Notes under the pieces: generated by a model | What the model was told of the DNA's origin: nothing | Databases searched by the model: none | The model's input: only the letters and a program-made list of their open reading frames with translations | In this document: positions 1 to 61,510 of the stretch, piece by piece | Layout of the letters: every line of letters begins with the position of its first letter | Position numbering within the stretch: the stretch's first letter is position 1 | Position numbers and translations under genes: made by a program | IMG/VR virus record: IMGVR_UViG_3300025706_000021 | Coordinates: 12,503 to 76,502 of that record | Strand: one strand, 5' to 3' | From: a virus | Taxonomy: Duplodnaviria > Caudoviricetes | DNA: 64,000 nucleotides

Positions 1-3000
1 AAACAGCTTTCGAACATCTGCTGTCTGCACTATCACCACACCAATAACATCGTTCGGAACGATTGTGAGCGGTGCGTAGACTGCATTCCCCTGATTGTCT
101 GTCAGGGAGAAGCGCTGCGTCGGTTCGTCATATCCCAAACGCAAGTATCCACCCGCACCGGAGAACTCAAGCACTGAGATTTGCGCGGCATCGCCGATCA
201 TCTTTGGGATCAGCCATGTCGAATATTTGAAAACCGGCTGAATCGACACATTCGTCCAATCAACCTTGACGCCACCTTGGAGTCGCAGACCTTGGGTGTT
301 TCTTCCAGCCTGATACGTGACATTTGTTGCGGTTGTTGCGGCCTTCCCGCCAATGCTTGTCAGAGAACCGCTAAGCATCCATCCATCGAATTCGTCAAAG
401 CGCAGACCCGCCTTCATCGATATTTGGTATTTCGCAACAACCGAATCAACTTCACCGCCAGGTGCCCAATGACGCAGCGACTCTGTACTAAGCCAATCAA
501 ACCCCGATGTTGTCCAGGTGATCGTGTCGGTATCGTCAAGGATCGACGTGACCTGTCCATAGATGGAATTCGCGGCTCGATAGGTATCAAGCAGATCAAC
601 AGGGAAGATGTACTCGCATCGAGACACGCCGTCGATCATCATCAGGTCGTAACCAACCGGCGTCATGTTCAGCGAGTTGTGCGGCCAGTTGAGCGCCGCC
701 TCATTGAACGACGCAACGATGTTCGAGTCTGTCGGCATCGCAATGGTCGTGTCGACCCATGCGGCATTTACGCTGTAGATTCCAGGAGCAGCGACAGCTT
801 TGATCCAGAACTTGCGAATGCCGATTGTTCCAGACGGGACAGACAGCGACGTTGCCTTCACTTCAGCAAGTACCTTACCCGATTGCCACGCGCTGCCCTC
901 GCGCACTTCGTAGTACGAGATTTCCTCGTTTTCCGCGCTCTCCCACGTTAGCTCAACACGGGAACCAGACTGAATGATGTCGAAGCGTTTCGGCGTGCTT
1001 GGGGCGACAAGAACGAGCTTGAAGGTCGTCACGTTGTCAGAATACTCCCCGCCCATGTTGATTGAGCGAATGTGGTAGAAGTACGTGCCAGCATTGTCCT
1101 GGTCATGCGTCAGCATCGTTCCCGCGAAGTTTGTCGTAATGATCGAACCCTCGTCCCACGACACCCCAACGCGAACCTCGTATCCAAGCAGGTTGATGTC
1201 CGTAACCGCATCCCATGTCAGCAACAAATCGCGCGTGCGCTTTTGCACGACGAAGTTTGCCACGTCACCAGGCGCAGCAGTTTTGCCAACTGTGATGTAT
1301 GAGGCATCAAGTCTTGCCGAGCGAACCCCAAAAGCATTTACGGCTGTAATCGAAAAGTGGTAGCGACCAGCACGCACATTGTCCAGTTCGAGAAGCGCGC
1401 TGCTTGTCTTTTCGGTTTTCCAGTTCGTTTCGTATTTACCGGTGCGCTTCCAGTCAATTTCGTAATATGCAGCATCGCACTCCCACGAAACATCAAGGGT
1501 CAGGCCCATTATGCCTGGCGCGATGATGACAGGAACTTCAGATACCGCAAAGTTCTTCGGGGTAGTGACGGACTTTGTGTTGATAGCCGATGTTGGCGTA
1601 TCCTGCAACTTCAGACCATACTCAATCGCGGCGAATTTCGACTTGTTATGCTCTACCGCAGTGATCGTGTATTGCCCTACTTCCTTGCCCTGCCCGACAC
1701 CAAGCACGCGCGCTTGCATCGGCACAAGGTTCGGTTCGGATATGATCCAAATGGCACCATCTACGGGATATGCAGGAAGAGGCTCCCACCATGAAACTGA
1801 CGTTTGCTCAGATGCACCAGCAGGCAAACCGCGAAGTGTGCGCTCCGCAAATGTTCCATCCGGCATTCGAATGGAGATTGTCGTCCCATCAAGTCCTGCC
1901 AACTGCACTGGACTGTCGAGAACAACCGATGTCAGCCCAGGCGCGGTAAGACGACCACCGAGGCGCTTACCAGCGCGTGACGCATCCTGAATTCGAATCA
2001 GGTCGCCAGGAAGCACCAGCGCCGAGTCGATCCCGACACTGAATGACACGACGTCGGATTCGAATTGCTCTGTATAAAGAATCCAAAGACCAACGCGGTG
2101 CGCTTGAGCGCGCGATGTGCATCCGAATGCAACGACCTCAACCTTTCGAATCCCAACCTTTGCGATCATGTCGGGGTTTTCGACGTACTCAATCACGCGC
2201 TGATAGTTCTGAGTAGGATCGTTCCACGCGACATGCGCAACGCTGTGACGGTCTTTTCTTGCAGATCCAGTGTAAGTGAACAGCCCGTCAATAACATTTG
2301 CATGGCTATACACCATCTGCGAGTCGCCCGGTGCGTCTTGCGTGAATCCGACCATGCCGCCATTCCAGTATGCCATTCCTCTAAAGACAGAGGTGATGTC
2401 AGAAATGACCTTGTAAGCCTCCGCTTGCGCCTGGATTACCGTATTGATCGTGAAGCGCGGCTCCCACCCACCAAAGCCATTTGGAACCATTTCGTCGCAG
2501 TAACGACCGATCTGATAGAGCTTGGCCTTATCGACTCTTGACTCAGGCAAGAATTGCCCAAGACCGTAGCGGGCGGTCGTCAGAATGTCGTAAAGAACCC
2601 AGGCTGGATTGTTCGAAACTGCGACTTTGAACGTGCCATCCCAAATGCCGTAATACTGACGCGAGGCTGGGTCGTAATTTGTCGGCACGCGAATATACAA
2701 ACCATCAACCAAGTAGGCGCGCGATGGGATTGAGTTGAACTGCGACGAATCGATTGTTACGCCGACAATCGCGGAGTTAGGGTAGCTCAGTCGTGAATTA
2801 ACGATCTCGACGCATGACTCGAATCCGATCTGGTTTTGCACAGACTGGTCGGCAGGATCGGGAGTAGTGCGCGTCATTCGGATCGACCAGCGCTGTGCAG
2901 CACCACCGTAGCCCCACTTTGGGAGTGCCACTTGATAGCTGCGCTCGTAGCGTGAGCGCGTCTTTCCAGAAATACTCAACTCACCGGTCAAGTCCTGGTA

Positions 3001-3945
3001 TGGCCCGCCGTTGATGGACACATCGAATTTGAAATTGACGTAGCTTCCGTGGATGTCCCCATTCGTCTTGTCCTGCGAGTACAGGCTTTGCACAGCAACA
3101 ATCAATCGAACGGCATCGACGTTCGGGTTCGTGATCGACACGGAGATCGGCGTTGATGCGGTGACGAGCGAACTTACGACATTCGGCGTCTCGACATCAG
3201 AGAACCCACCTCCCATCGGGGATTGCCATTGTGTTCCGTATCGCGCGTCCCACGAAACACCATTGAAGTTCATTGCGCCATCGACGCGCTGCAATGGGGT
3301 ATCGTTGAAGAAAATGGACTGAGCGCCACTCACCAAGCCGCCGATCTGCCCCTCTCCCAATAGGTCGAGAACCGAGATCATCGCACGCGACTGCAATGTG
3401 TCTGGATCTTCTACAGCAGCGCGTGGGGTGCCACCACCGTCGCCCTTGCTCTTGCTACCACCACCAGAACCAGCAACGACAGGATAGCGCTCGCGGTGCC
3501 CGCCGTTATGAACGCGAACGCCACTTGCGATGAACGTGTGGTGCGGTTCGACTGTCAGGTTCCACACCGGTTCGTAACCGACCAGTTCGGCCTCAATGAT
3601 CGGACGAAGATGCCCCATGCCATCAACAAGGGCGTCATGGGTCGAGAGAGAACCGATCTCGGCAAAGTTTCCATACTGGTTCAGAACCCAATGGTTTGGG
3701 GTGATGAACACCTCACCACGCCAAAACTTCACACGAAGAATTGGCTGCGGATCTTCGTGGTAGTGCAGTTCCGTTACTTTCGCGTTGTGGATGTTGCCAT
3801 CTTCGTCAAACGCAAGAACAGAGTCGCCCGTCTTGAGTTCTTCGATTGCGAGCGTCTTTCCACCCGCAAGCTGAACCTGCGTTCCCTTTCGAAAACACCC
3901 ACCGCCACCACCCGCGCCAGCAATACTTCTCAGTTCGTCAGACAT
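1..3945 (-). CDS. Tail tip / central tail fibre (host specificity protein J), runs off the window at its 3' end; N-terminal Hint domain
   Basis: Absent from the ORF track (no stop in window). Manual translation from ATG 3945: MSDELRSIAGAGGGGG-C...HN-GGHRERYPVVAGSGGGSKSKGDGGGTPRAAVEDPDTLQSRAMISVLDLLGEGQIG, a typical gpJ N-terminus. Frame spot-checked at position 1, not read codon by codon throughout. Follows L-K-I in lambda order. Confidence 0.92.
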   Translation of the reverse strand, partial: MSDELRSIAGAGGGGGCFRKGTQVQLAGGKTLAIEELKTGDSVLAFDEDGNIHNAKVTELHYHEDPQPILRVKFWRGEVFITPNHWVLNQYGNFAEIGSLSTHDALVDGMGHLRPIIEAELVGYEPVWNLTVEPHHTFIASGVRVHNGGHRERYPVVAGSGGGSKSKGDGGGTPRAAVEDPDTLQSRAMISVLDLLGEGQIGGLVSGAQSIFFNDTPLQRVDGAMNFNGVSWDARYGTQWQSPMGGGFSDVETPNVVSSLVTASTPISVSITNPNVDAVRLIVAVQSLYSQDKTNGDIHGSYVNFKFDVSINGGPYQDLTGELSISGKTRSRYERSYQVALPKWGYGGAAQRWSIRMTRTTPDPADQSVQNQIGFESCVEIVNSRLSYPNSAIVGVTIDSSQFNSIPSRAYLVDGLYIRVPTNYDPASRQYYGIWDGTFKVAVSNNPAWVLYDILTTARYGLGQFLPESRVDKAKLYQIGRYCDEMVPNGFGGWEPRFTINTVIQAQAEAYKVISDITSVFRGMAYWNGGMVGFTQDAPGDSQMVYSHANVIDGLFTYTGSARKDRHSVAHVAWNDPTQNYQRVIEYVENPDMIAKVGIRKVEVVAFGCTSRAQAHRVGLWILYTEQFESDVVSFSVGIDSALVLPGDLIRIQDASRAGKRLGGRLTAPGLTSVVLDSPVQLAGLDGTTISIRMPDGTFAERTLRGLPAGASEQTSVSWWEPLPAYPVDGAIWIISEPNLVPMQARVLGVGQGKEVGQYTITAVEHNKSKFAAIEYGLKLQDTPTSAINTKSVTTPKNFAVSEVPVIIAPGIMGLTLDVSWECDAAYYEIDWKRTGKYETNWKTEKTSSALLELDNVRAGRYHFSITAVNAFGVRSARLDASYITVGKTAAPGDVANFVVQKRTRDLLLTWDAVTDINLLGYEVRVGVSWDEGSIITTNFAGTMLTHDQDNAGTYFYHIRSINMGGEYSDNVTTFKLVLVAPSTPKRFDIIQSGSRVELTWESAENEEISYYEVREGSAWQSGKVLAEVKATSLSVPSGTIGIRKFWIKAVAAPGIYSVNAAWVDTTIAMPTDSNIVASFNEAALNWPHNSLNMTPVGYDLMMIDGVSRCEYIFPVDLLDTYRAANSIYGQVTSILDDTDTITWTTSGFDWLSTESLRHWAPGGEVDSVVAKYQISMKAGLRFDEFDGWMLSGSLTSIGGKAATTATNVTYQAGRNTQGLRLQGGVKVDWTNVSIQPVFKYSTWLIPKMIGDAAQISVLEFSGAGGYLRLGYDEPTQRFSLTDNQGNAVYAPLTIVPNDVIGVVIVQTADVRKLF
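3505..3897 (-). other. 131-aa Hint (intein-like/BIL) domain inside J
   Basis: Starts CFRKGTQV, block B ITPNHW, ends VWNLTVEPHHTFIASGVRVHN; next residue is Gly, not Cys/Ser/Thr. Confidence 0.9.
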
Positions 3946-3955
3946 AGTTTCTCAA

Positions 3956-4543
3956 TTACATGAGTTGATCGACCGTGGCCGACACAGAAATCGTTCGTGA
4001 TCCAACCATGACTCGCCCATAAATCAGCGAAACAGGCGCACCTTGCGGCGACGTGTTTGTCGGGCCGTCGAAGTAGTAGGAAGCCTTGCTTTCGTATGCT
4101 TGCTCCTGCTTCGCCTCTTGCGTCTTCGGCGTCTTGGTTAGCATTTCGGCGATACCACCGGCGAACATGCTGATGCCCATTCCTATGAGCGGCGCACCAA
4201 ATGGGGTCTCGCTAAGAATCACGCCAACAATCACAAGAACAACCCCAAGAACCGCCTTAAAGGCGCCGCCAGCGCCGACGATTATCGGAACGAAGCGAAT
4301 TGACTTCATCTTGCGCTCCAGCTTGACCGTTTCTTCTTCGAGTTCTTCTTCGCTTCCGTCTTCGTACTCGACAATCACACTGTAGCGGTCGAAGTTTTTA
4401 AGCTGTTCTCGAATCCACTTGAATACGCCTGGCTTATTGGCATCGACCATACGCAGCGCTTCAATTGGCGAGCGAACGCTAAGCTCCCACTCGCGCCCGA
4501 ATTCCTTGCCCATCTGTCCTTCGAGAATTACCTTGGTCAGCAT
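3956..4543 (-). CDS. Tail assembly protein I (ubiquitin-like fold)
   Basis: IRFVPIIVGAGG motif followed by a hydrophobic stretch and YYFDGPTNTSPQGAPVSLIYG, typical of lambda gpI. Confidence 0.9.
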   Translation of the reverse strand: MLTKVILEGQMGKEFGREWELSVRSPIEALRMVDANKPGVFKWIREQLKNFDRYSVIVEYEDGSEEELEEETVKLERKMKSIRFVPIIVGAGGAFKAVLGVVLVIVGVILSETPFGAPLIGMGISMFAGGIAEMLTKTPKTQEAKQEQAYESKASYYFDGPTNTSPQGAPVSLIYGRVMVGSRTISVSATVDQLM

Positions 4544-5271
4544 TTCGATTCGTGTCTCAGGTGAAGCATCGTGTGTTTGTGCCAGTAACCAGCGTAGATG
4601 TCACGGCGCGATAGGCGCCCGTGACAGTGGTGCAAAATCATGTCGTCGCCAATGTAGATGGCGATATGGTTTGGATTCGCGTGTCCGGTTTGCAGAATGA
4701 ACAAATCGCCAGGAATGGGTTCGCGGTCAATTAGCTTCACCATCCCTTCGTTCTTCCAGTTCTGCCCAAAGAAGTCGTGGCCTTGCTCCCAAAACTTCTC
4801 GATACGCGGGTAATCGCCCAGCGTGATCCCAAACTCTCTGCGGTAGTAGTCACGCACCAGCGACCAACAATCAAGCACGCCAAACACGTATGGGCGCTCA
4901 AGGTAGGGCAACTCAAAACCAGAGGGATTAACGACGATAGGCCCGTCAGAAATGAATCCGTCTTCGCTCTTATGGATAGATGTGATGTACCAAGGAAGGC
5001 CGGAGTTCTCGCAGCCCACCAAGTCTGCATCTGATGGGCTGTTTGGGCACTCGACGTGCGTGTGCCAGACACCGATGATCTCGCCCTGATCAGCCGCAGC
5101 AGCGTAGTCGTGAATGTCCATCACGAAGTTGTTTCTTGGATCTTCCGCGCGGTTTCTGCATACGACCGGCAGAGACTTCTTGCCGACCTTAACCACCAGA
5201 CCACAAGCCTCGTTCGGGTATTGCGCCTCGCCAAACTCGCGCATTGCGAGTGCCAGGTCTTTAATATCCAC
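4537..5271 (-). CDS. Tail assembly protein K (JAB/MPN + NlpC/P60 peptidase)
   Basis: WHTH...SPSDAD JAB motif; DCWSLVRDYY and NHIAIYIGDDMILHH NlpC motifs. GTG start at 5271 overlapping the L stop preferred over the track start 5358. Confidence 0.92.
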   Translation of the reverse strand: MDIKDLALAMREFGEAQYPNEACGLVVKVGKKSLPVVCRNRAEDPRNNFVMDIHDYAAAADQGEIIGVWHTHVECPNSPSDADLVGCENSGLPWYITSIHKSEDGFISDGPIVVNPSGFELPYLERPYVFGVLDCWSLVRDYYRREFGITLGDYPRIEKFWEQGHDFFGQNWKNEGMVKLIDREPIPGDLFILQTGHANPNHIAIYIGDDMILHHCHGRLSRRDIYAGYWHKHTMLHLRHESKC

Positions 5272-5947
5272 GCATCGCTCCTGGGAATCCACCGAACGGC
5301 AAAACACCGCCACCAAATCTCGCCTTGCAAGATGACAGTCTTTTTGCGCAGAAGTCATGCTCTTGATATGGTGTTGGGTTGTCGTTCGTATCGACGTAAC
5401 CGCCAGTCCAACCGCACTCGCCGCTTCGGTATCTCCACGGGCATGCGTTTTGAATGACCTGGCGGTAAGGTAGCATCACGCCCTGCAAATCAAACGCAGA
5501 GGCGAGTTCCCACTCGACCACGTAGCGGTTTTCGGAAATCTTCTGGTCAATAAACCAGATGTCATCCTCTAGGTGCTGATTTGGGTCTGCCGATGGATTG
5601 CCGCCAGGAAAATTGACCGCATCAAGAAATCGGACAAACGTGCGCTTGCGCGTCAGCTTGCACCCGATAAGGTCATCACTTTGACGAACCGCAGCCGAGA
5701 AAATGCCATCGATGTTTGCGACACGAACCTTCGGGCGCGGTAGCGTGCCCTTCGCATTGACGTCGAATCCCTCTGCCTCAACCGGGAGCGCAATGTATTC
5801 GACGTTCTGCCATACAACGTGCTGCTGCAACTCGTTTGTTCCAGCATGAAAGCGACCGATTCCAGCACCGACACTTGTCATGTCGATTTCGAATAGCTCG
5901 ACAATGGCTGTCGGGGCTAGTAGCTGAATTTCAGTTTTGACGCTCAC
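5261..5947 (-). CDS. Minor tail protein L
   Basis: IVELFEID, ELASAFDL, CPWRYRSGEC, CAKRLSSC, LPFGGFPG: the gpL Fe-S cysteine pattern. Confidence 0.93.
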   Translation of the reverse strand: MSVKTEIQLLAPTAIVELFEIDMTSVGAGIGRFHAGTNELQQHVVWQNVEYIALPVEAEGFDVNAKGTLPRPKVRVANIDGIFSAAVRQSDDLIGCKLTRKRTFVRFLDAVNFPGGNPSADPNQHLEDDIWFIDQKISENRYVVEWELASAFDLQGVMLPYRQVIQNACPWRYRSGECGWTGGYVDTNDNPTPYQEHDFCAKRLSSCKARFGGGVLPFGGFPGAMRGY

Positions 5948-6282
5948 AGATCGAATACCTGCTCGAATGTCGCCGTAACGACGTAGATTCCAAAGTTCTG
6001 CTGACTGCTAGACCACTCAGCGCAGGTGTATGTCGCCTCGATATTCATCGGATCTACCCATGCGAATGGCTCGACACCGCCTCGCGCATTGAGAAACGTA
6101 AGAATGTCCGTCGCTGTGGCGAGGTTCGTCGTGAAGGTCACATTCCACGACTTCGGCTTCGAGTTGATGCCAACAGGAACGCGAAGCGCGTAGCCATCGC
6201 CAAACTTCGTTACCGTCACGTTTGGTTTAAACGTCTGACGCGCCCCGAGATCGGGATTCCAAGTGAAATTAGGCTTACTCAT
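5944..6282 (-). CDS. Minor tail protein M (distal tail)
   Basis: FTWNPD, KFGDGY, TATFEQVF; lies between tape measure and L. Confidence 0.88.
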   Translation of the reverse strand: MSKPNFTWNPDLGARQTFKPNVTVTKFGDGYALRVPVGINSKPKSWNVTFTTNLATATDILTFLNARGGVEPFAWVDPMNIEATYTCAEWSSSQQNFGIYVVTATFEQVFDL

Positions 6283-6299
6283 TATATGTCACCCGTGAC

Positions 6300-9200
6300 T
6301 TACTTGTAAAGCAGACCGCCTGGGCGCTGCTGAATAACCATTTCTTCCTTGACCACGCCCTTGATGCGGTCGGCAAGTTTTTTCCACACTTGGGCATCCT
6401 CGCCAGAAGAACTGCTCTTTTCTGTTCCGTCGTTCTGATTCACCTGAATAACAATGCTGACGTTTGGCGCATCACCGGAACCACCGCCGACAACATTGAC
6501 ACCAAGGCGCCCATTTGCGTCGCGAGCGAGAGGCATAACGGCCTCAGGGCCAGCTTCACCCATTACGCCGAACTTGCCGCCATTGGCGAACTTGAACAGC
6601 GTTGGGTCGGCATATACCCCATTGGTGAATGCCCCACCGTTCGCAAACTTGGACAGTTCGCCACTGCTTACGAATGCACCGCCAAGCGCCTTGAGCGTGA
6701 TCCCATTACCGAGAAATCCACCACTACCACCACCGCCCCCACCGCCAAGTAGGCCACCCAGCAAGCTACCGGCCGCACCTATCACGCTGGAAACCGCACC
6801 TCCAATTGCCTTCTGAGCGGAGATTCGCGCGATGTCAGTCAGGATCGAGACCGTGAATTTGCGCCAATCTGCCTTCCCTGTGGTAATAAGTTCGGTCAGT
6901 TGATCCATGAACCCATTTGCCCAATTCGCGGTTGCCTGCTGCATGTTCTCGGTCACGTCCTGCCACTGCTTTCCGAGACGTTCGAGCGGGGTTTCAGAAT
7001 CCTTTTGAAACTTCTTCAGGGCGTTTGCTTTTCTTTCTTCGAAATCGACCGCCAGGGCGAGCAGCTTCTCTTGCTCTTCCTTCTCGTCCATCATTGTTGT
7101 CTCTGCGGAAACAATGAAGTCGTCGCGACGACGGCGATACTCTTCTTCCAGCTTGCGGGTCGTCAGTTCGTACTGCTTGCGAATCTTCTCTTGAGAGTTA
7201 TCGATAAGGTCGATTTCCAGCTTTGCGGACTCGTCAATGGTCGCATTGTGGTACTCGATGTTTGCCTCCCTTGCCGCAACCAGCATTCGCTGGGCGTTAA
7301 TCAGGCTTAGCTGACCAGTCACGACGCCGCCAAGAAGGGCTTTTTGCTTCTCATATTCGGCAGAAAGCGCCATCATCTTTTTGTTCGCGAATTCAGCACC
7401 GAAACCGGACGAGTGGATCTTCTCGTCAAGCATTTCGGTTTCAGACGCGAGCGCTTTCGCGGATGTCTTGGTCGCCCCAAGAGCCGCATCGACCTGCTTC
7501 GCTCTTGTTTCGGTTGCGATCAGTTCTTCGTACAGTTCCTTATCTTTGCCCCTGGCATCGATACCCTGCTTCTTCGTGTTGCCCTTCTTGTCCTTGTACG
7601 TCTTCGTCAGTTCGCCATTGGCGAGCATCTTCTCGTACTTCTCGCGCACCTCGGTTTCGATCAAATCAACCTTGCTGATCTGACCGCTAACCTGTTGCAG
7701 CTTCGCCTCTGCAATTGTGAGTTCTGCCTTTGCGTCGTTCAGGTGCTTCTCAAGACTACCAACGACCGGAACGCGCGAAGAGCCGCCACCCTTGTCATCT
7801 TTCGACTTGACGCTAACGTATGGCGTGCCAATTTTCTCAGGGTTGATGCCCTGAAGCAGAGTCTCCCTTGCCTCGTTGAGCGCCTTGATCTTGGCGAGCG
7901 CTTGGTCTGCTTTTTCCTTGCCAGCGTCGCCGAGACGACCAGCGGCGTCGAACTCAGCGGTTACAGCGGTCAGGCGGCTGTCGATTTCGAGCAACTTCGA
8001 ATCACGGTTCGCTACCGCATACTTCTTCGTCGCTTCGGATTCCTCAGTTGCCTGGCGCTTGACCTCTTCCGAGTATTCCTTGCTGCCCTCTTTGAGCTTA
8101 GACAGGCGTTGCTTGTTTTGGGCGTCGCGTTCCTTCTTTTCATTCTCGAACGCGCGCTGCCAGGCATTTGCGTTGCCTGTGTTCTTCATGTCGAGCAGGG
8201 CGTTTTCTTGGGCTACCGCATCATCGATACCCTGCTTCTTGATGTTGTATTCCTGACGACGCTCAAGTTCCTCGATCTCAGCAAGACGCTTTTTGTTGCT
8301 ATCCATGCGTCGCGTGATTTCGGTTCGATTGAAGCCTTTCTCAAGATGCTTCTCGTCCTTCTCGATTTGCCCCTTGAGGTCTGCCTTTTCTTCCCTTGTT
8401 TCGGCAAGCTCTTTTGCGTCAGCAACGCCCATCCAGGCATTCTTGGCGCGGTTAGCAGCCCTCTCTGCTGCATTGGCATACTTGTCCCAAATGTAAATCG
8501 CCCCCATGATGATGCCGGTGACGATCATGATCGGGCCACCGAGGGCATTGAACACGCCCATTAGCCCGGCCAGCTTCCCGCCAGTCGCAACGGCAGCAGC
8601 ACCAGCGGCATTCATTTGGGTGATAAGCGCGCGTTCAGCAACGACATTCGCTTCGACGACGGCAAGACGCGCCTGAAGCGCGGCGATGTTCTGCTTATAG
8701 AGCGCCCCGCCAGTCATCCCGTACAGGGCGGTTTGGGCGGCGAGATTCTTCTCGATCATCGCGATTTCCGCAGTCATCATCGCGGTCATCTTGATGTTCT
8801 CGTTTGCCTTTACTGCAAGTTTTGCGTTCGAGGTGGCGGTGTATTCGGCAGCGCTCTTTGCGTACACGAGCGAAAGTGTCGAGAACTCTGCCTTCAGGGT
8901 CGCGAACGTCGCAACCAACTTCGAGGCAGCGAAGGCGGCGATCAGCGTTGCGCCAGCGATCTTCACTTCGTCATAGAAGCGAATTACGAACTGGATCGCG
9001 TCCTTGAACGCGACAGCGAATCCTCCAACAACTTCAGACAGGTCTGTTCCAAACTTGCGTGCGGTGTTCGAGTCGAACGAGGCAAGCAAGTCTTCAATTG
9101 CCTTCTTTGCATCTGCAAATGCGCCCTGCCCGCTATCGCCCCCCGCGAGTTCGTACTTGAAGAGCGACCACTTGGTATTGAGCTTGGCGAGCATGCCCTC

Positions 9201-9965
9201 CCATGTGTCCATCATCTTCGAGGCAGCACCCTCGTTCTCGAACTGCATAACGGCGAACATGCGCTCAAGGGCAGATTTCGCCTCAACCTCGCCATTCGAG
9301 ATTGACTTGACGAGATCGGACATCGACTTGCCAACACCGGTCGCCATCATATTGATCGCTGTCGGCACGGCTTCGCCAAGCTGCTGTCGAAGTTCTTCCA
9401 TCGACACGACGCCCTTACCTGCCATCTGCTGAATAGCAATTGAGGCGCGGTGAAGTTGTTCGGAGTTACCGCCGAATCGAGCGACAGAATCGACCAGCGC
9501 CTTCATCGACCCGTTCATGGGATCGATGCCGCCAGATTTCAGCTTTACGAACGAATCGGTGAGCGCCTTGACATCGAATGGCGCGTTCTGCGCCATGTCA
9601 AAGACGAAGTTTCTGCCCTTCTTTGCATCAGCAACTTTGTCGGTCGCTGTGCTAAGCCCCTCCATGAGCTTAGTCATTCGCTCAATTTCGCCAGAGGTCT
9701 TGACGATAGAGAGCGGCAAACGCAGGAACACGTCATGAAAATCGAGCAGCGCAAAGCGTGCTGTCGCCGCCATAATCATGAAGTGACGAAATGCTGTACC
9801 GACACCCGTCAGGTGTTCTTCAACGCGCTTTGTGCTTGTTGCGGTATCCGTGAGCGACTTGCGTAGCTCTTTCAGTAGAACGTCGGCGTTTTTGACCTGG
9901 ACAGTGAATTCACGACTGTCCATCGTCAAACCAATCGAAATATCGTCGCCGACCTTCACACTCAT
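6300..9965 (-). CDS. Tape measure protein
   Basis: 1221 aa, Ala/Gly-rich and helical, with a tape-measure N-terminal block (QQMAGKGVVSMEELRQQLGE) and a C-terminal MGEAGPEAVMPL. Confidence 0.95.
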   Translation of the reverse strand: MSVKVGDDISIGLTMDSREFTVQVKNADVLLKELRKSLTDTATSTKRVEEHLTGVGTAFRHFMIMAATARFALLDFHDVFLRLPLSIVKTSGEIERMTKLMEGLSTATDKVADAKKGRNFVFDMAQNAPFDVKALTDSFVKLKSGGIDPMNGSMKALVDSVARFGGNSEQLHRASIAIQQMAGKGVVSMEELRQQLGEAVPTAINMMATGVGKSMSDLVKSISNGEVEAKSALERMFAVMQFENEGAASKMMDTWEGMLAKLNTKWSLFKYELAGGDSGQGAFADAKKAIEDLLASFDSNTARKFGTDLSEVVGGFAVAFKDAIQFVIRFYDEVKIAGATLIAAFAASKLVATFATLKAEFSTLSLVYAKSAAEYTATSNAKLAVKANENIKMTAMMTAEIAMIEKNLAAQTALYGMTGGALYKQNIAALQARLAVVEANVVAERALITQMNAAGAAAVATGGKLAGLMGVFNALGGPIMIVTGIIMGAIYIWDKYANAAERAANRAKNAWMGVADAKELAETREEKADLKGQIEKDEKHLEKGFNRTEITRRMDSNKKRLAEIEELERRQEYNIKKQGIDDAVAQENALLDMKNTGNANAWQRAFENEKKERDAQNKQRLSKLKEGSKEYSEEVKRQATEESEATKKYAVANRDSKLLEIDSRLTAVTAEFDAAGRLGDAGKEKADQALAKIKALNEARETLLQGINPEKIGTPYVSVKSKDDKGGGSSRVPVVGSLEKHLNDAKAELTIAEAKLQQVSGQISKVDLIETEVREKYEKMLANGELTKTYKDKKGNTKKQGIDARGKDKELYEELIATETRAKQVDAALGATKTSAKALASETEMLDEKIHSSGFGAEFANKKMMALSAEYEKQKALLGGVVTGQLSLINAQRMLVAAREANIEYHNATIDESAKLEIDLIDNSQEKIRKQYELTTRKLEEEYRRRRDDFIVSAETTMMDEKEEQEKLLALAVDFEERKANALKKFQKDSETPLERLGKQWQDVTENMQQATANWANGFMDQLTELITTGKADWRKFTVSILTDIARISAQKAIGGAVSSVIGAAGSLLGGLLGGGGGGGSGGFLGNGITLKALGGAFVSSGELSKFANGGAFTNGVYADPTLFKFANGGKFGVMGEAGPEAVMPLARDANGRLGVNVVGGGSGDAPNVSIVIQVNQNDGTEKSSSSGEDAQVWKKLADRIKGVVKEEMVIQQRPGGLLYK

Positions 9966-58396: not shown

Positions 58397-61300
58397 TTAG
58401 TATTGAAGAATTTCGTCGTCTTCGGTTAGTTCATCGACGCGCTTCCATTCGCCCGAAACGGTCTTGAGCTTGTGGTTGCCGGTCAGCTTCACAACCGTAC
58501 CGTCCTCAAACTCAATCTCATAAACCGGCTTAACGCCATTGAGGTATAGCTTGGTGACTTCGCGCTCGACATTGCCCTCGTCCAGAACCATCGTCTTGAT
58601 GGTTGGCTCAATCCAGGTGCCGTCTTGCATCGTCAGCAGCGCAGCTTCGGTAACTCCATGCTTGGCGAACAATTCACGCATGGTCAGAATACCTTCGGTC
58701 GTCTTGATTGCGGAATCAAGCGACGCGCAACCAGCGGGCTTCATGGTCGTGTTCGTGTGCGGAACAGCAACACCGATGCTCTGCGAGTATTCACGCGCTT
58801 CGTCCTGGATGGCTCGCTTGAATCGCGACAGGGTAAGCCAGAATTTCAGCGAGGCTTTTTCATTGACGAGATCCTTCCAGCCGTAACCGAAGCGTGCCCA
58901 TGCGTATTCATGCACGCCAGTCATCCCCACACCGATACGGTTGGTGCGGGCGACTTCCTTCGAATACAGTGAGTCCATCAGGTTCGTGCGAATCAGGGCG
59001 CGCGTGGTGACACGGAAAGCATCTTCGGCGTCATCATCCCAATCGCGACCGGTTGTTTCCATCCAGAACTCGCCGCGCACACCGGAACCCGCATGGAAGG
59101 GAACAACGTCAGCAATGACGCAGTAGCCACCCAGCTTGCCAAGCACGATCTCCCCGCATGGGTTGGTGATTACTTGAGTTTGACCGTCAGCGAAAGCCTT
59201 CGCTAGTGCCGCAGTCAGTTCGAGGGTTTCGTCGTCCAGCTTGTATTTCGCGCTCTCGGCGAACTTACCGTCGAGCAGTTTTTCGATACCTTCGCTGTTC
59301 CAGGTCAGCTTGTCGACGTTAATCAAACCTGGCTCGCCTGTCTGGTCGTAGTAGGCTGCTTCGCAGATCGCATCAAAGACGCGCTTTGCGTGTGCTTCGG
59401 CTTCAGTAACAAGCCCCTCCTTTTCGAGAAGAACCAGGCTTGGAGATTCCGCCATGACTGCGCGTGCCTTCTTTATTGCCTCTTTGGCACTCACGACGCA
59501 TGTCCAGAATTCTTCATCGACCGTGACGCTGTTGTTCGAAGACCACAGGAAGCCACCGCGCTTGACCTCGATGAACTCAAGAACGCTCTTGTCCTTCCAA
59601 TACTTCGTTGCCATGCGTGCCGCGCGGCGGGCACCACCCACCAGAACGCACTCTGCTGCATAGTGGTCTGCGTACATCGCAGAGCGCCACGGTGCCATAC
59701 CTGCATCACGCAGGGCGGCGATATTCATGATCGCCTTCATCAGAGCGCCTGGGCCAGATGCGGGGCGGTTCTGCATACCCGCGATTGGGGCACCACGCGG
59801 GCGAACGTCCGAGAAGTCGAGAATCAGCACGTCGTCACGGAAATTTTTCTTGAACGCAGTGCGCTCCATCGCCTCGATTGCCTTTGCCCAGCCCTCGCGA
59901 CTGTCAGGAACACGGAAGTAGCGAATGGTACGCCCAGCGTACAGGTGACGGGCGTTGCGATCATCAAGCGATGTGATTTCACCCGACTGAACATCCTTGT
60001 GGTGCTGATCGATAACCGGGATGGTAATCGGCATGTTTCGCCAATCGACCAGCATCATTTCGTCGTCGTATGCGCGCCCAACACCGGAGCCATTCAGCAG
60101 CAGGTAGAAGTTCAGGAAAGTGACGGCGGCGGTCGAGCAGTTTCCGGTAAGCAGTCCATTTGCGAGAACAAAAGATGTCGTTACAGGCTCTTCCGGGCAA
60201 TACACATTCGCGCGACCAACCGGCTCAATACTCTCGACCTTCCACTCAACGCCCTTACGCAAACGAAGGCAATGCAGTGCTTTCCCATTTGCAAATGATC
60301 CATCACCCTCCTTGCGCTCCATGACGCGGTGCATCGTGGTATTAAATCCAGCGATTGCGGCGTGTTCTTCAAGCCATTCAGCAGCGCTCTTATCGCAAGT
60401 GCTGATTTCCATAGAATTGAACTGATTCTTTGAGCCATCCGCGAGCCACCAGCCATAGATGAAACCCGCGATGTACTCAGGATCGCGTGAGAACGGAACT
60501 TCCTTCGCTCCCTCGAATTTTCCGATGTAATACACTCGGTCGCCGCCTGCGCTCGGAGGGGTCGTGAATTTATATCCAGCAGCGTCAAGGTATTCATGGA
60601 TCTCTTCGCGAACCTTATCCTGCTTACAGACGCGAATGCTTGCGTAAGTGCGGCCTTGCGAGAAGTGTCGCGCGCCGTCAATGCGTGACTTGTGCGCAGT
60701 GCCATCCCCAAAAATCAGACCGTGCGTGATACCGACTGGATCAAGCCCAAATGCGTCAGCAACAGGGGCGATGCAGTCACCGACGGCGATTGCGTCGGTG
60801 AACGACCCATCGCGCAGTTTCCAGCGATGATTCGCTGTAGCGGTGACGGTTTTGCGGAACTTACCCGCCGCGCCCTTCACTGGCTTGAAGGTGATCTCAA
60901 AAAGATCCTGCTCTCCATGTTCGTTAATCATCGCGGGGCGCGGCATGCCGTCACCAGCGATAACAGTCACGATCTGACCAGCAATTTTATCAAGCTCGAT
61001 TGGGCCATACTCCATCGTCAGAATGCGAGTCGAACCATCAAGGCAGTTCGTGAAGACTTCCTGGTTGCGTGTCGGTTGTGTTTCGTCGCCGTGCTGTAGG
61101 TGACGACCGGACATCAGCACCGATGCCTGACGCAAGTGATGATGCAGTGCATGGAATTCGTATTCGCGAAGCGCCGGGCCTCCAGGCTCAAGCATCGAAT
61201 TGCCAACAGCGACGCGGCGCGCAACGTCGGCCCACTTCTCGGTGACAATGTGTTCAGTGACATGCAGCTTGATTTTCAGGGAGAGGTCATCACCCTCAAG

Positions 61301-61510
61301 AACGTCGTATTCCTCGGCAACCAAGCCCTTCGATTTGCAGTAAGCGGCAACTTCGCTGTCCAGCGCAACGCTATCCATTCGCGGCAGGTCGATGATCTCG
61401 TAATACAGTGGAACCGGAACTTCGATTTTGCGGTTGATGGTGCGGTCTGCAACCGCATCCCCGATGCCTTTTGCGTAGTCGCGCGCCGGGGTTGTGAAGC
61501 TATTGAGCAT
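58397..61510 (-). CDS. nrdJ: Class II (B12-dependent) RNR N-terminal fragment with a contiguous intein and a split IntN
   Basis: SGRHL, TN|C, GVG, VGGARRAA, EPG, TNPCGEI, KPAG|C. Confidence 0.93.
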   Translation of the reverse strand: MLNSFTTPARDYAKGIGDAVADRTINRKIEVPVPLYYEIIDLPRMDSVALDSEVAAYCKSKGLVAEEYDVLEGDDLSLKIKLHVTEHIVTEKWADVARRVAVGNSMLEPGGPALREYEFHALHHHLRQASVLMSGRHLQHGDETQPTRNQEVFTNCLDGSTRILTMEYGPIELDKIAGQIVTVIAGDGMPRPAMINEHGEQDLFEITFKPVKGAAGKFRKTVTATANHRWKLRDGSFTDAIAVGDCIAPVADAFGLDPVGITHGLIFGDGTAHKSRIDGARHFSQGRTYASIRVCKQDKVREEIHEYLDAAGYKFTTPPSAGGDRVYYIGKFEGAKEVPFSRDPEYIAGFIYGWWLADGSKNQFNSMEISTCDKSAAEWLEEHAAIAGFNTTMHRVMERKEGDGSFANGKALHCLRLRKGVEWKVESIEPVGRANVYCPEEPVTTSFVLANGLLTGNCSTAAVTFLNFYLLLNGSGVGRAYDDEMMLVDWRNMPITIPVIDQHHKDVQSGEITSLDDRNARHLYAGRTIRYFRVPDSREGWAKAIEAMERTAFKKNFRDDVLILDFSDVRPRGAPIAGMQNRPASGPGALMKAIMNIAALRDAGMAPWRSAMYADHYAAECVLVGGARRAARMATKYWKDKSVLEFIEVKRGGFLWSSNNSVTVDEEFWTCVVSAKEAIKKARAVMAESPSLVLLEKEGLVTEAEAHAKRVFDAICEAAYYDQTGEPGLINVDKLTWNSEGIEKLLDGKFAESAKYKLDDETLELTAALAKAFADGQTQVITNPCGEIVLGKLGGYCVIADVVPFHAGSGVRGEFWMETTGRDWDDDAEDAFRVTTRALIRTNLMDSLYSKEVARTNRIGVGMTGVHEYAWARFGYGWKDLVNEKASLKFWLTLSRFKRAIQDEAREYSQSIGVAVPHTNTTMKPAGCASLDSAIKTTEGILTMRELFAKHGVTEAALLTMQDGTWIEPTIKTMVLDEGNVEREVTKLYLNGVKPVYEIEFEDGTVVKLTGNHKLKTVSGEWKRVDELTEDDEILQY
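58400..58729 (-). mobile_element. Split intein N-fragment (110 aa)
   Basis: CASLDSAI...KLTGNHKL...ELTEDDEILQY-stop. Confidence 0.9.
60140..61045 (-). mobile_element. Contiguous 302-aa intein with a LAGLIDADG-like domain
   Basis: CLDGSTRI, TANHRW, GLIFGDG / GWWLADG, ends VLANGLLTGN|C. Confidence 0.92.

What the first reader, a model, noticed from the sequence alone, without database searches (positions are those of the whole stretch)
3505..3945. Tail-tip protein J starts with a self-processing Hint domain lacking the +1 nucleophile
A 16-aa Gly-rich leader is followed by a complete 131-aa Hint domain (Cys1, block-B TxNH, terminal His-Asn) and then Gly. By established intein/BIL chemistry it should cleave (N-terminal thioester, C-terminal Asn cyclisation) rather than splice canonically. 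Inference: it acts as a timed maturation switch for the central fibre, or it ligates the leader onto another molecule. The central tail fibre is the reported target of bacterial Bil ubiquitin-like defence, so a counter-defence or assembly role is conceivable but speculative.
Basis: partly seen in the sequence, partly recalled or inferred. Interest (0 to 1): 0.78.

Follow-up and report, generated by a model that had tools for sequence, protein, structure and literature searches.

The report
Self-cutting intein-like cap on tail-tip J
The tail-tip protein J of this uncultured phage starts with a real, apparently active intein-like (Hint) domain that probably cuts itself off after translation; many environmental relatives carry the same optional cassette, but no cultured phage or paper I searched does.

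Summary
J (minus strand, ATG at 3945) opens with a 16-residue leader ending in five Gly. A 131-residue Hint domain follows (C17 to N147, window 3505-3897), then Gly-Gly.

The domain passes Pfam PT-HINT when scanned alone. It aligns end to end with the Mtu RecA mini-intein, folds at pLDDT above 93, and is structurally closest to BIL domains (Tetrahymena BIL2, C. thermocellum BIL).

In 120 homologues Cys1, the TxNH block, the block-F Asn and the terminal His-Asn never vary. The +1 residue is Gly in 119 and never a nucleophile.

Equally close J relatives lack the domain. Their N-termini match both our leader and the segment just after our Hint, so cutting at N147|G148 leaves a native-looking J.

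Presence is patchy on the J tree (19 state changes). The Hint is more conserved than the J hub (69% against 54%).

Most likely it is an A-type-BIL-like self-excising cassette. The biological role is unknown, and the Bil counter-defence idea has no support.

This scan has already found the same thing on other DNA several times. I found no paper on it, and none of 50,697 phage records carries it.

The parts
3898..3945 (-). Leader (N-extein), residues 1-16: variable start, then a hydrophobic pair and a Gly run ending at G16
   Evidence: In homologues the leader is 6-37 residues and variable. It always ends in a Gly run, and the -1 residue is Gly in 118/120.
3505..3897 (-). Hint domain, C17-N147 (131 residues), A-type-BIL-like
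   Evidence: Pfam PT-HINT, PDB sequence and fold matches, AF2 pLDDT above 93.
3895..3897 (-). Cys17, the predicted N-terminal nucleophile (Hint position 1)
   Evidence: Invariant in 120/120 homologues. Aligns with Cys1 of the Mtu RecA mini-intein.
3691..3702 (-). Block B, T82-P83-N84-H85
   Evidence: T, N and H are invariant in 120/120. Aligns with the TPDH block of the RecA intein.
3505..3567 (-). Blocks F and G: V127...N129...H136-T137...V145-H146-N147
   Evidence: N129, H136, T137, H146 and N147 are invariant. The block-F Asn is shared with C. thermocellum BIL and with all other classes of this Hint family.
3481..3504 (-). Conserved post-Hint segment, residues 148-155 (Gly-Gly-His-Arg...Pro); predicted new N-terminus of J after cleavage
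   Evidence: G148 119/120, G149 120/120, R151 and P155 119/120. Disordered in the AF2 model.
3457..3480 (-). Second copy of the hydrophobic-pair plus Gly-run motif (residues 156-163)
   Evidence: Same motif as the leader and as the N-termini of Hint-less J relatives.
3412..3456 (-). Gly/Ser/Lys-rich disordered linker (residues 164-178) leading into the first conserved J segment
   Evidence: Corresponds to the Gly/Lys-rich start of lambda J.
1..3411 (-). Body of tail-tip protein J (TipJ). The last 29 residues and the stop lie outside the window; the full protein is 1344 residues (P0002)
   Evidence: Pfam FNIII-A_GpJ and Phage-tail_3 above cut-off. PHROG central tail fiber J, E 1.9e-274. Full length.
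3956..4543 (-). Context: gpI-like tail assembly protein. Its N-terminal domain ends in a similar hydrophobic-pair plus Gly motif
   Evidence: PHROG 32 tail assembly protein, E 4.5e-52. Sequence. Ubiquitin-like reading from PMC1779556.
4537..5358 (-). [quoted passage not shown]
   Evidence: NCBIfam desampylase (JAB) and NlpC/P60-type hits. A JAMM-type His-x-His...Ser-x-x-Asp motif is visible. Syntenic K genes in L015 and L016 carry Prok-JAB + NLPC_P60.

Best explanation
This is an A-type bacterial-intein-like (BIL / PT-HINT) self-processing cassette. It sits in the disordered, glycine-rich N-terminal leader of a lambda-type tail-tip protein J from a phage of Burkholderiales-like hosts.

Proposed mechanism, all steps inferred from family chemistry:
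1. After translation, Cys17 attacks the Gly16 carbonyl (N-S acyl shift, helped by block-B Thr82/His85) to form a Gly16~Cys17 thioester.
2. Asn147, helped by His146, cyclises to a succinimide and breaks the N147|G148 bond.
3. With no +1 nucleophile there is no branched intermediate. The thioester is mostly hydrolysed (giving leader, free Hint and J). In a minority it is attacked by the freed alpha-amine of Gly148, which re-ligates the leader.

Mature virion J would therefore lack the Hint. In the main product it would begin at Gly148, with an N-terminus built like that of Hint-less J proteins.

The cassette is optional. It is gained or lost repeatedly among close relatives and needs no extra gene nearby. 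Its benefit is unknown. My best guess is a transient N-terminal cap that keeps the J N-terminus out of tip assembly until processing.
For: Shown:
- The Hint fold and family are established.
- C17, T82, N84, H85, N129, H136, T137, H146 and N147 are invariant in 120/120 homologues. The -1 residue is Gly in 118/120, and +1 is Gly in 119/120, never Cys, Ser or Thr.
- The Hint-less relatives P0122-P0138 and others are as close in the J hub (55-65% identity) as Hint-bearing ones.
- The N-terminus of Hint-less P0126 aligns residue for residue with the post-Hint segment of P0029.
- The Hint state changes 19 times on the J tree, against a shuffled mean of 33 and minimum of 27.
- The Hint is more conserved than the J hub in 99% of pairs, 69% against 54% mean identity.
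- Gene order M-L-K-I-J is identical in a Hint-less locus (L015) and a Hint-bearing locus (L016).

From the literature: type A BILs have a C-terminal His-Asn, lack a +1 nucleophile, mostly cleave, and can ligate by aminolysis (PMC4031507).
Against: - No biochemical or virion data exist for any member, so activity is inferred from conserved residues only.
- The leader's Gly run and hydrophobic pair are conserved although the leader would be discarded. That fits re-ligation, or some use of the thioester, better than simple hydrolysis.
- If only C-terminal cleavage mattered, Cys1 and block B need not be invariant.
- Catalytic conservation is also what a purely selfish, intein-like element would show.
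- The sample of 120 was chosen by similarity to the query Hint, which inflates its apparent conservation somewhat.
Confidence: 0.6

Rival explanations
1. Non-canonical protein splicing is the main outcome. After Asn147 cyclisation, the free amine of Gly148 attacks the Gly16 thioester. Mature J then carries the leader fused directly to Gly148, and the Hint behaves as a harmless, intein-like passenger.
For: - This aminolysis route is the one proposed for type A BILs, and the C. thermocellum BIL does splice (PMC4031507).
- Gly at both -1 and +1 is nearly invariant, and sterically ideal for a thioester and an amine.
- The leader motif stays conserved.
- Some relatives (P0204, P0221, P0173) have no second motif copy after the Hint, so only ligation would keep the hydrophobic pair on J.
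Against: - Cleavage products dominate in the BILs that have been tested.
- In this clade a second full motif copy is kept right after the Hint, which would be redundant if the leader were re-attached.
- Leader length and sequence vary a great deal.
Confidence: 0.2
2. The Hint acts as an activating module. It turns the leader, which resembles the C-terminal tail of a ubiquitin-like domain, into a Gly thioester. That thioester is passed to a lysine or other nucleophile on another molecule (a tail-tip partner or a host factor), as Tetrahymena BIL2 does with its ubiquitin-like N-extein.
For: - The best structural match is BIL2 of the Tetrahymena BUBL locus. BIL2 makes isopeptide bonds without ATP (PMC8616854).
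- The leader and the post-Hint motif resemble the end of the ubiquitin-like domain of gpI, here and in lambda, SSU5 and a Burkholderia phage.
- The neighbouring gpK carries JAB and NlpC/P60 peptidases, predicted to process such tails (PMC1779556).
Against: - The N-extein is a 6-37 residue variable peptide, not a folded ubiquitin-like domain.
- No lysine near the junction is conserved.
- Hint-less relatives have the same K and I genes, so no dedicated partner is apparent.
- The motif is short, so the resemblance may reflect only a shared preference for a flexible linker.
Confidence: 0.07
3. The Hint is not removed. It stays on the virion as a surface decoration or as a latent switch that fires only at infection.
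For: - A disordered linker of about 30-45 residues separates it from the J hub, so it might be tolerated sterically.
- Invariant His61/His63 and near-invariant His112 are specific to the J class and could form a regulatory metal site. BIL2 is zinc-regulated.
Against: - A passive decoration would not keep every catalytic residue invariant in 120/120 sequences.
- Hint-less relatives show it is dispensable for J structure.
Confidence: 0.08

Closest known systems
Type A bacterial intein-like (BIL) domains / Pfam PT-HINT (PF07591), e.g. C. thermocellum BIL, PDB 2LWY
   Same: - Hint fold (TM 0.87 normalised to 2LWY, rmsd 1.6 A).
- Cys1, TxxH block B, block-F Asn, C-terminal His-Asn, and no +1 nucleophile.
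- Sits in a variable, non-enzymatic part of its host protein.
- Expected chemistry: N-terminal thioester plus Asn cyclisation.
   Different: - The host is a phage tail-tip protein, and the position is the extreme N-terminus behind a short peptide.
- Gly is nearly invariant at both -1 and +1.
- It has its own conserved signature (His-x-His at 61-63, Trp75, Asn84, Trp86, His112-Leu-Arg-Pro).
- Sequence identity to 2LWY is only about 28%.
Tetrahymena thermophila BUBL BIL2 (PDB 6Y75, 6TMM)
   Same: - Best structural hit (E 1.5e-11).
- The N-extein ends in glycine directly before Cys1.
- There is no canonical splicing.
   Different: - BIL2 is flanked by folded ubiquitin-like domains and transfers one onto a lysine.
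- Here the N-extein is a short variable peptide, and no acceptor lysine is conserved.
Canonical mini-inteins (Mtu RecA, Ssp/Npu DnaB)
   Same: - Same fold and blocks A, B, F and G.
- Aligns end to end with the RecA mini-intein.
- No homing endonuclease domain.
   Different: - The +1 residue is Gly, not Cys, Ser or Thr.
- It is not inserted in a conserved catalytic site.
- The block-F Asp is replaced by Asn.
- The host protein works without ligation.
C-terminal intramolecular chaperone / peptidase S74 domains of phage tail fibres and spikes
   Same: A self-cleaving module on a trimeric phage tail protein that is absent from the mature virion. This is a functional analogy only.
   Different: - Unrelated fold and chemistry.
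- C-terminal rather than N-terminal.
- Known to drive trimerisation, which is not shown for the Hint.
Hedgehog/Hog autoprocessing domains
   Same: - A Gly-Cys-Phe junction with an N-terminal thioester.
- Fold match (1AT0, E 7.7e-7).
   Different: - Hog domains are C-terminal, have no terminal His-Asn cleavage, and use a sterol-recognition region.
- Here the large functional protein lies downstream of the Hint, not upstream.

Membership tests
HINT superfamily | Horseshoe-like all-beta Hint fold | tested here: met
   AF2 pLDDT above 93 over residues 17-147. 66 PDB matches at E<=0.001, all BILs, inteins or Hedgehog domains.
Type A BIL / PT-HINT | N-terminal Cys (or Ser) nucleophile and block-B Thr-x-x-His | tested here: met
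   C17 and T82...H85 are invariant in 120/120.
Type A BIL / PT-HINT | C-terminal His-Asn | tested here: met
   H146-N147 is invariant in 120/120. NCBIfam intein_Cterm scores 16.2 against a cut-off of 15.6.
Type A BIL / PT-HINT | No nucleophilic residue at +1 | tested here: met
   G148: Gly in 119/120, Ala in 1/120.
Type A BIL / PT-HINT | Curated profile score (Pfam PF07591 gathering threshold 27.7) | tested here: inconclusive
   32.0 bits on residues 1-167 alone, but 26.9 bits on the full protein.
Type A BIL / PT-HINT | Autocatalytic cleavage or splicing activity | not testable with these tools
   Needs expression of J(1-300) with C17A and N147A controls.
Class 1 intein | Cys, Ser or Thr at +1 to form the branched intermediate | tested here: not met
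   +1 is Gly.
Class 1 intein | Insertion in a conserved site of the host protein, so that ligation restores function | tested here: not met
   It sits in a disordered Gly-rich leader that varies in length, and Hint-less relatives exist.
Class 3 intein | Block-F Cys nucleophile with no Cys1 | tested here: not met
   Cys1 is present and block F (residues 127-139) has no Cys.
BUBL-type BIL (ubiquitin-dispensing) | Folded ubiquitin-like domain as N-extein | tested here: not met
   The N-extein is 16 residues here and 6-37 in homologues.
TipJ / lambda gpJ central tail fibre | FNIII-A_GpJ and Phage-tail_3 domains, in the tail module after M, L, K and I | tested here: met
   Pfam E 2.1e-30 and 3.6e-28, above cut-offs. 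PHROG J families. Neighbours L (TIGR01600, E 2e-85), K, I and the tape measure protein.

The most novel reading that the evidence does not exclude
The Hint is not just a self-removing cap. It is an ATP-independent activating module in a ubiquitin-like chemistry of the tail tip. It would convert a leader that mimics the tail of the gpI ubiquitin-like domain into a Gly thioester. That thioester would then be handed to a nucleophile on a tail-tip partner, or would intercept a host ubiquitin-like defence such as Bil, working with or against the JAB/NlpC-P60 protein gpK.
Probability: 0.08. Interest if true: 0.85.

Novelty: new variant of a known kind. Interest (0 to 1): 0.55.

Why it matters
Self-processing of lambda-type tail-tip proteins by a Hint domain appears in none of the papers I could search. 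It is also absent from the 50,697 deposited phage records. Yet the cassette recurs in hundreds of environmental J genes and is kept under tighter constraint than the J hub itself.

If it is active, it would be a new maturation route for a central phage structural protein. It would also be a compact natural module with Gly at both junctions, of possible use for traceless tag removal or ligation.

It also raises the question of what the conserved Gly-rich N-terminus of J does, next to the poorly understood gpI/gpK ubiquitin-like pair.

If it is merely a passenger, it shows how Hint domains spread through glycine-linker coding DNA in phage tail genes.

Tried and rejected
- **I-J translational fusion** that would make gpI the N-extein: rejected. 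The J frame has a TGA three codons before the ATG, and J is out of frame with gene I.
- **Canonical or class 3 splicing:** rejected, because +1 is Gly and block F has no Cys.
- **Foreign origin by composition:** no signal. GC is 0.54 against 0.55, and GC3 0.58 against 0.60, for the Hint against the J hub.
- **Long DNA repeats flanking the cassette:** only 7-8 nt of microhomology in the two Gly-coding motifs.
- **A dedicated partner gene:** none. Gene order and sizes are the same in Hint-less L015 and Hint-bearing L016.
- **A recent insertion or deletion in that pair:** not seen. Flanks are 55-80% identical at DNA level with no rise near the 447-nt gap.
- **A second Hint in this 76.5-kb record:** none.
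- **A cultured phage with the cassette:** tblastn of 50,697 records found only helicase inteins.
- **Papers:** eight searches relevant to this question found no description of a Hint on phage J.
- **Dassa et al. 2004:** could not be read. I relied on the Mills, Johnson and Perler review instead.
- **Active-site geometry and the possible His site:** no model coordinates were available to measure them.

Full report
**What is there**

The window is bases 12503-76502 of a 76.5-kb IMG/VR viral record. On the minus strand, a lambda-type tail module runs in this order:
- tape measure protein, 6300-9965
- gpM-like, 5944-6282
- gpL, 5261-5947 (TIGR01600, E 2e-85)
- gpK-like, 4537-5358 (JAB plus NlpC/P60)
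- gpI-like, 3956-4543
- J, from the ATG at 3945

J runs off the window start. The full protein, read from the record, has 1344 residues (P0002).

J begins with a 16-residue leader that ends in five glycines. Then come Cys17, a 131-residue domain ending His146-Asn147, and Gly148-Gly149. The finding's coordinates 3505-3945 are exactly residues 1-147. An in-frame TGA three codons upstream of the ATG fixes the start and rules out a fusion with gene I.

**Is it a Hint domain?**

Yes.
- Scanned alone, residues 1-167 pass Pfam PT-HINT (32.0 bits, cut-off 27.7). Hint, Vint, Intein_splicing and Hint_2 score just below their thresholds.
- phmmer against PDB finds the C. thermocellum BIL domain 2LWY (E 6.5e-6). 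It also aligns Cys17 to Asn147 end to end with the Mtu RecA mini-intein, matching block B (TPNH against TPDH) and the terminal VHN.
- An AlphaFold2 model built on 51 sequences has pLDDT above 93 over residues 17-147. Residues 150-196 are disordered.
- Foldseek ranks Tetrahymena BIL2 first (E 1.5e-11), then 2LWY (TM 0.87, rmsd 1.6 A), then DnaB and RecA mini-inteins. Hedgehog comes lower.
- PHROG J families start aligning only at residue 160-169, so the Hint is an N-terminal addition to an ordinary J.

**Conservation**

A search with residues 1-200 returned 120 listed homologues of 56-81% identity. All carry the domain on a TipJ protein. They include NCBI entries from Herbaspirillum huttiense, Oxalobacter and a betaproteobacterial MAG.

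Across the 120:
- Invariant: Cys17, Phe18, Thr82, Asn84, His85, Asn129, His136, Thr137, His146, Asn147 and Gly149.
- Gly148 is Gly in 119, never Cys, Ser or Thr.
- Gly16 is Gly in 118.
- Arg151 and Pro155 are kept in 119.
- The leader varies from 6 to 37 residues but always ends in a hydrophobic pair followed by a small residue and a glycine run.

The block-F Asn, in place of the usual intein Asp, is shared with the C. thermocellum BIL. It is also shared with every other class of this Hint family that I recovered.

**The cassette is optional**

A search with the J hub (residues 176-700) returned Hint-bearing and Hint-less proteins interleaved. Examples are P0122 (65% identity, 1192 residues, no Hint) and P0005 (66%, with Hint).

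The Hint-less proteins start with Met, 3-12 variable residues, then the same hydrophobic pair and glycine run, then a Gly/Ser/Lys linker and the first conserved J segment. Cultured relatives (SSU5, a Ralstonia phage, Burkholderia phage phiBt-TXDOH, lambda) look the same and have no Hint.

In this clade the motif occurs twice, once in the leader and once eight residues after Asn147. The N-terminus of Hint-less P0126 aligns position for position with the post-Hint segment of its closest Hint-bearing relative P0029. Cleavage at Asn147|Gly148 would therefore leave a J whose N-terminus is built like that of any Hint-less J.

More distant members show other arrangements:
- no second motif copy (P0204, P0221, P0173)
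- Lys at +1 (P0281)
- two tandem Hints separated by a short Gly-Lys linker (P0162, P0175, P0203)

**Evolution**

On a FastTree of the J hub (154 proteins), the Hint state changes 19 times. Shuffled labels give a mean of 33 and a minimum of 27. The distribution is therefore clustered but clearly patchy. Four of the 'Hint-less' rows are N-terminally truncated gene calls and should be read as unknown.

Among Hint-bearing proteins, mean pairwise identity is 69% for the Hint and 54% for the hub. The Hint is the more conserved part in 99% of pairs, and the two identities correlate (Spearman 0.53). The first 120 were picked by Hint similarity, which inflates this. The same holds for proteins picked by J similarity (compare).

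Other checks:
- GC and GC3 do not differ from J.
- A Hint-less locus (L015) and a Hint-bearing locus (L016) have the same M-L-K-I-J order and gene sizes. They differ by a clean 447-nt gap, and flank identity (55-80%) does not rise near it. That particular difference is old, and no partner gene accompanies the Hint.
- Only one Hint exists in this record.
- Named genomes with close copies are Burkholderiales (Castellaniella, Oxalobacter, a betaproteobacterial MAG). A 40%-identical copy sits in a Desulfovibrionaceae MAG, and two others sit in MAGs labelled Chloroflexi and Micrococcales, whose host assignment I did not check.

**Mechanism**

The chemistry below is inferred, not shown. Every residue needed for the N-S acyl shift and for Asn cyclisation is present and invariant. 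The missing +1 nucleophile excludes the branched intermediate. The absence of a block-F Cys excludes the class 3 route.

Type A BILs with this make-up mostly cleave, and can ligate by aminolysis after Asn cyclisation (PMC4031507). I therefore expect a Gly16~Cys17 thioester and cleavage at Asn147|Gly148. That would release the Hint and give a J starting at Gly148, with some re-ligated product possible.

Two observations suggest the N-terminal reaction matters and is not a relic. Cys1, block B and the -1 glycines are invariant. The leader motif is also conserved.

[quoted passage not shown] A bulky N-terminal cap could therefore plausibly delay tip assembly, but this is a guess.

**The ubiquitin-like thread**

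The best structural match, BIL2, transfers a Gly-terminated ubiquitin-like N-extein onto lysines without ATP (PMC8616854).

Iyer et al. described gpI as a ubiquitin-like domain, a Gly linker and a C-terminal domain, and gpK as JAB plus NlpC/P60. They predicted that JAB cuts after the terminal Gly of the ubiquitin-like domain (PMC1779556).

Here the gpI N-terminal domain ends in a proline, a hydrophobic pair and a Gly-x-Gly-Gly. This resembles both J motif copies. The same holds in lambda, SSU5 and the Burkholderia phage. gpK has an intact JAMM-type motif.

This is suggestive but weak. The motif is short, the leader is not a folded domain, no acceptor lysine is conserved, and Hint-less phages have the same K and I. 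I keep it as the low-probability novel reading.

**Novelty**

The fold, the family and the expected chemistry are known. The host protein, the position, the Gly/Gly junctions and the optional-cassette behaviour are not described in any paper I could find. No record among 50,697 deposited phages has it. BFVD holds an unnamed uncultured-virus protein with the same fold at 36% identity.

An exhaustive search found 3438 cluster representatives at E<=0.001, of which 72 are at E<=1e-30.

This scan has already reported the same cassette on other genomes several times, and the same stretch was noted twice more on this genome. My independent checks agree with those notes.

Noticed in passing
Proteins P0163, P0168, P0170, P0174, P0176, P0182 and about 50 more (not in the window): Poly-Hint proteins with 3-5 tandem Hint domains of this family (31-38% identity). 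The domains are separated only by Lys-Gly or Lys-Gly-Gly-Gly. The arrays sit behind an N-terminus that looks like a signal peptide and ends Ala-x-Ala-Arg plus a Gly run. The +1 residue is Lys in 69% of these domains. What such arrays produce is unclear.
   Followed up: partly
Proteins P0162, P0175, P0203: J proteins with two tandem N-terminal Hint domains joined by a short Gly-Lys linker. This suggests the cassette can duplicate or insert twice in the glycine run.
   Followed up: partly
window 3956-4543 (-) and 4537-5358 (-): The N-terminal (ubiquitin-like) domain of gpI ends in a Pro, hydrophobic pair and Gly-x-Gly-Gly motif that resembles both J motif copies. gpK has an intact JAMM-type motif plus NlpC/P60. 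The same resemblance is seen in lambda, SSU5 and Burkholderia phage phiBt-TXDOH. J's N-terminal leader may be a substrate or docking site for gpK.
   Followed up: partly
window 3505-3897 (-), residues 61, 63, 112: His61 and His63 (84% and 100% across the 165 J-class Hint domains) and His112 (85%) are specific to J-class Hints and absent from the poly-Hint class. They may form a metal site, by analogy with zinc-regulated BIL2. I could not check the geometry because no coordinates were available.
   Followed up: no
window 6300-9965 (-): Besides tape-measure families, residues 85-422 of the tape measure protein match a PHROG annotated as endolysin (phrog_1768, E 9e-50). This may be an embedded cell-wall-degrading domain.
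   Followed up: no
window 58397-61510 (-): A 1037-residue ORF matches a ribonucleotide reductase PHROG only over residues 467-942. About 460 N-terminal residues are unexplained, and there is a weak helicase-family hit at the C-terminal end.
   Followed up: no
L002 9493-10788 (-), outside the window, downstream of J: A 431-residue protein whose C-terminal 110-200 residues match many distal tail-fibre PHROGs. This phage probably has side fibres as well as J.
   Followed up: no
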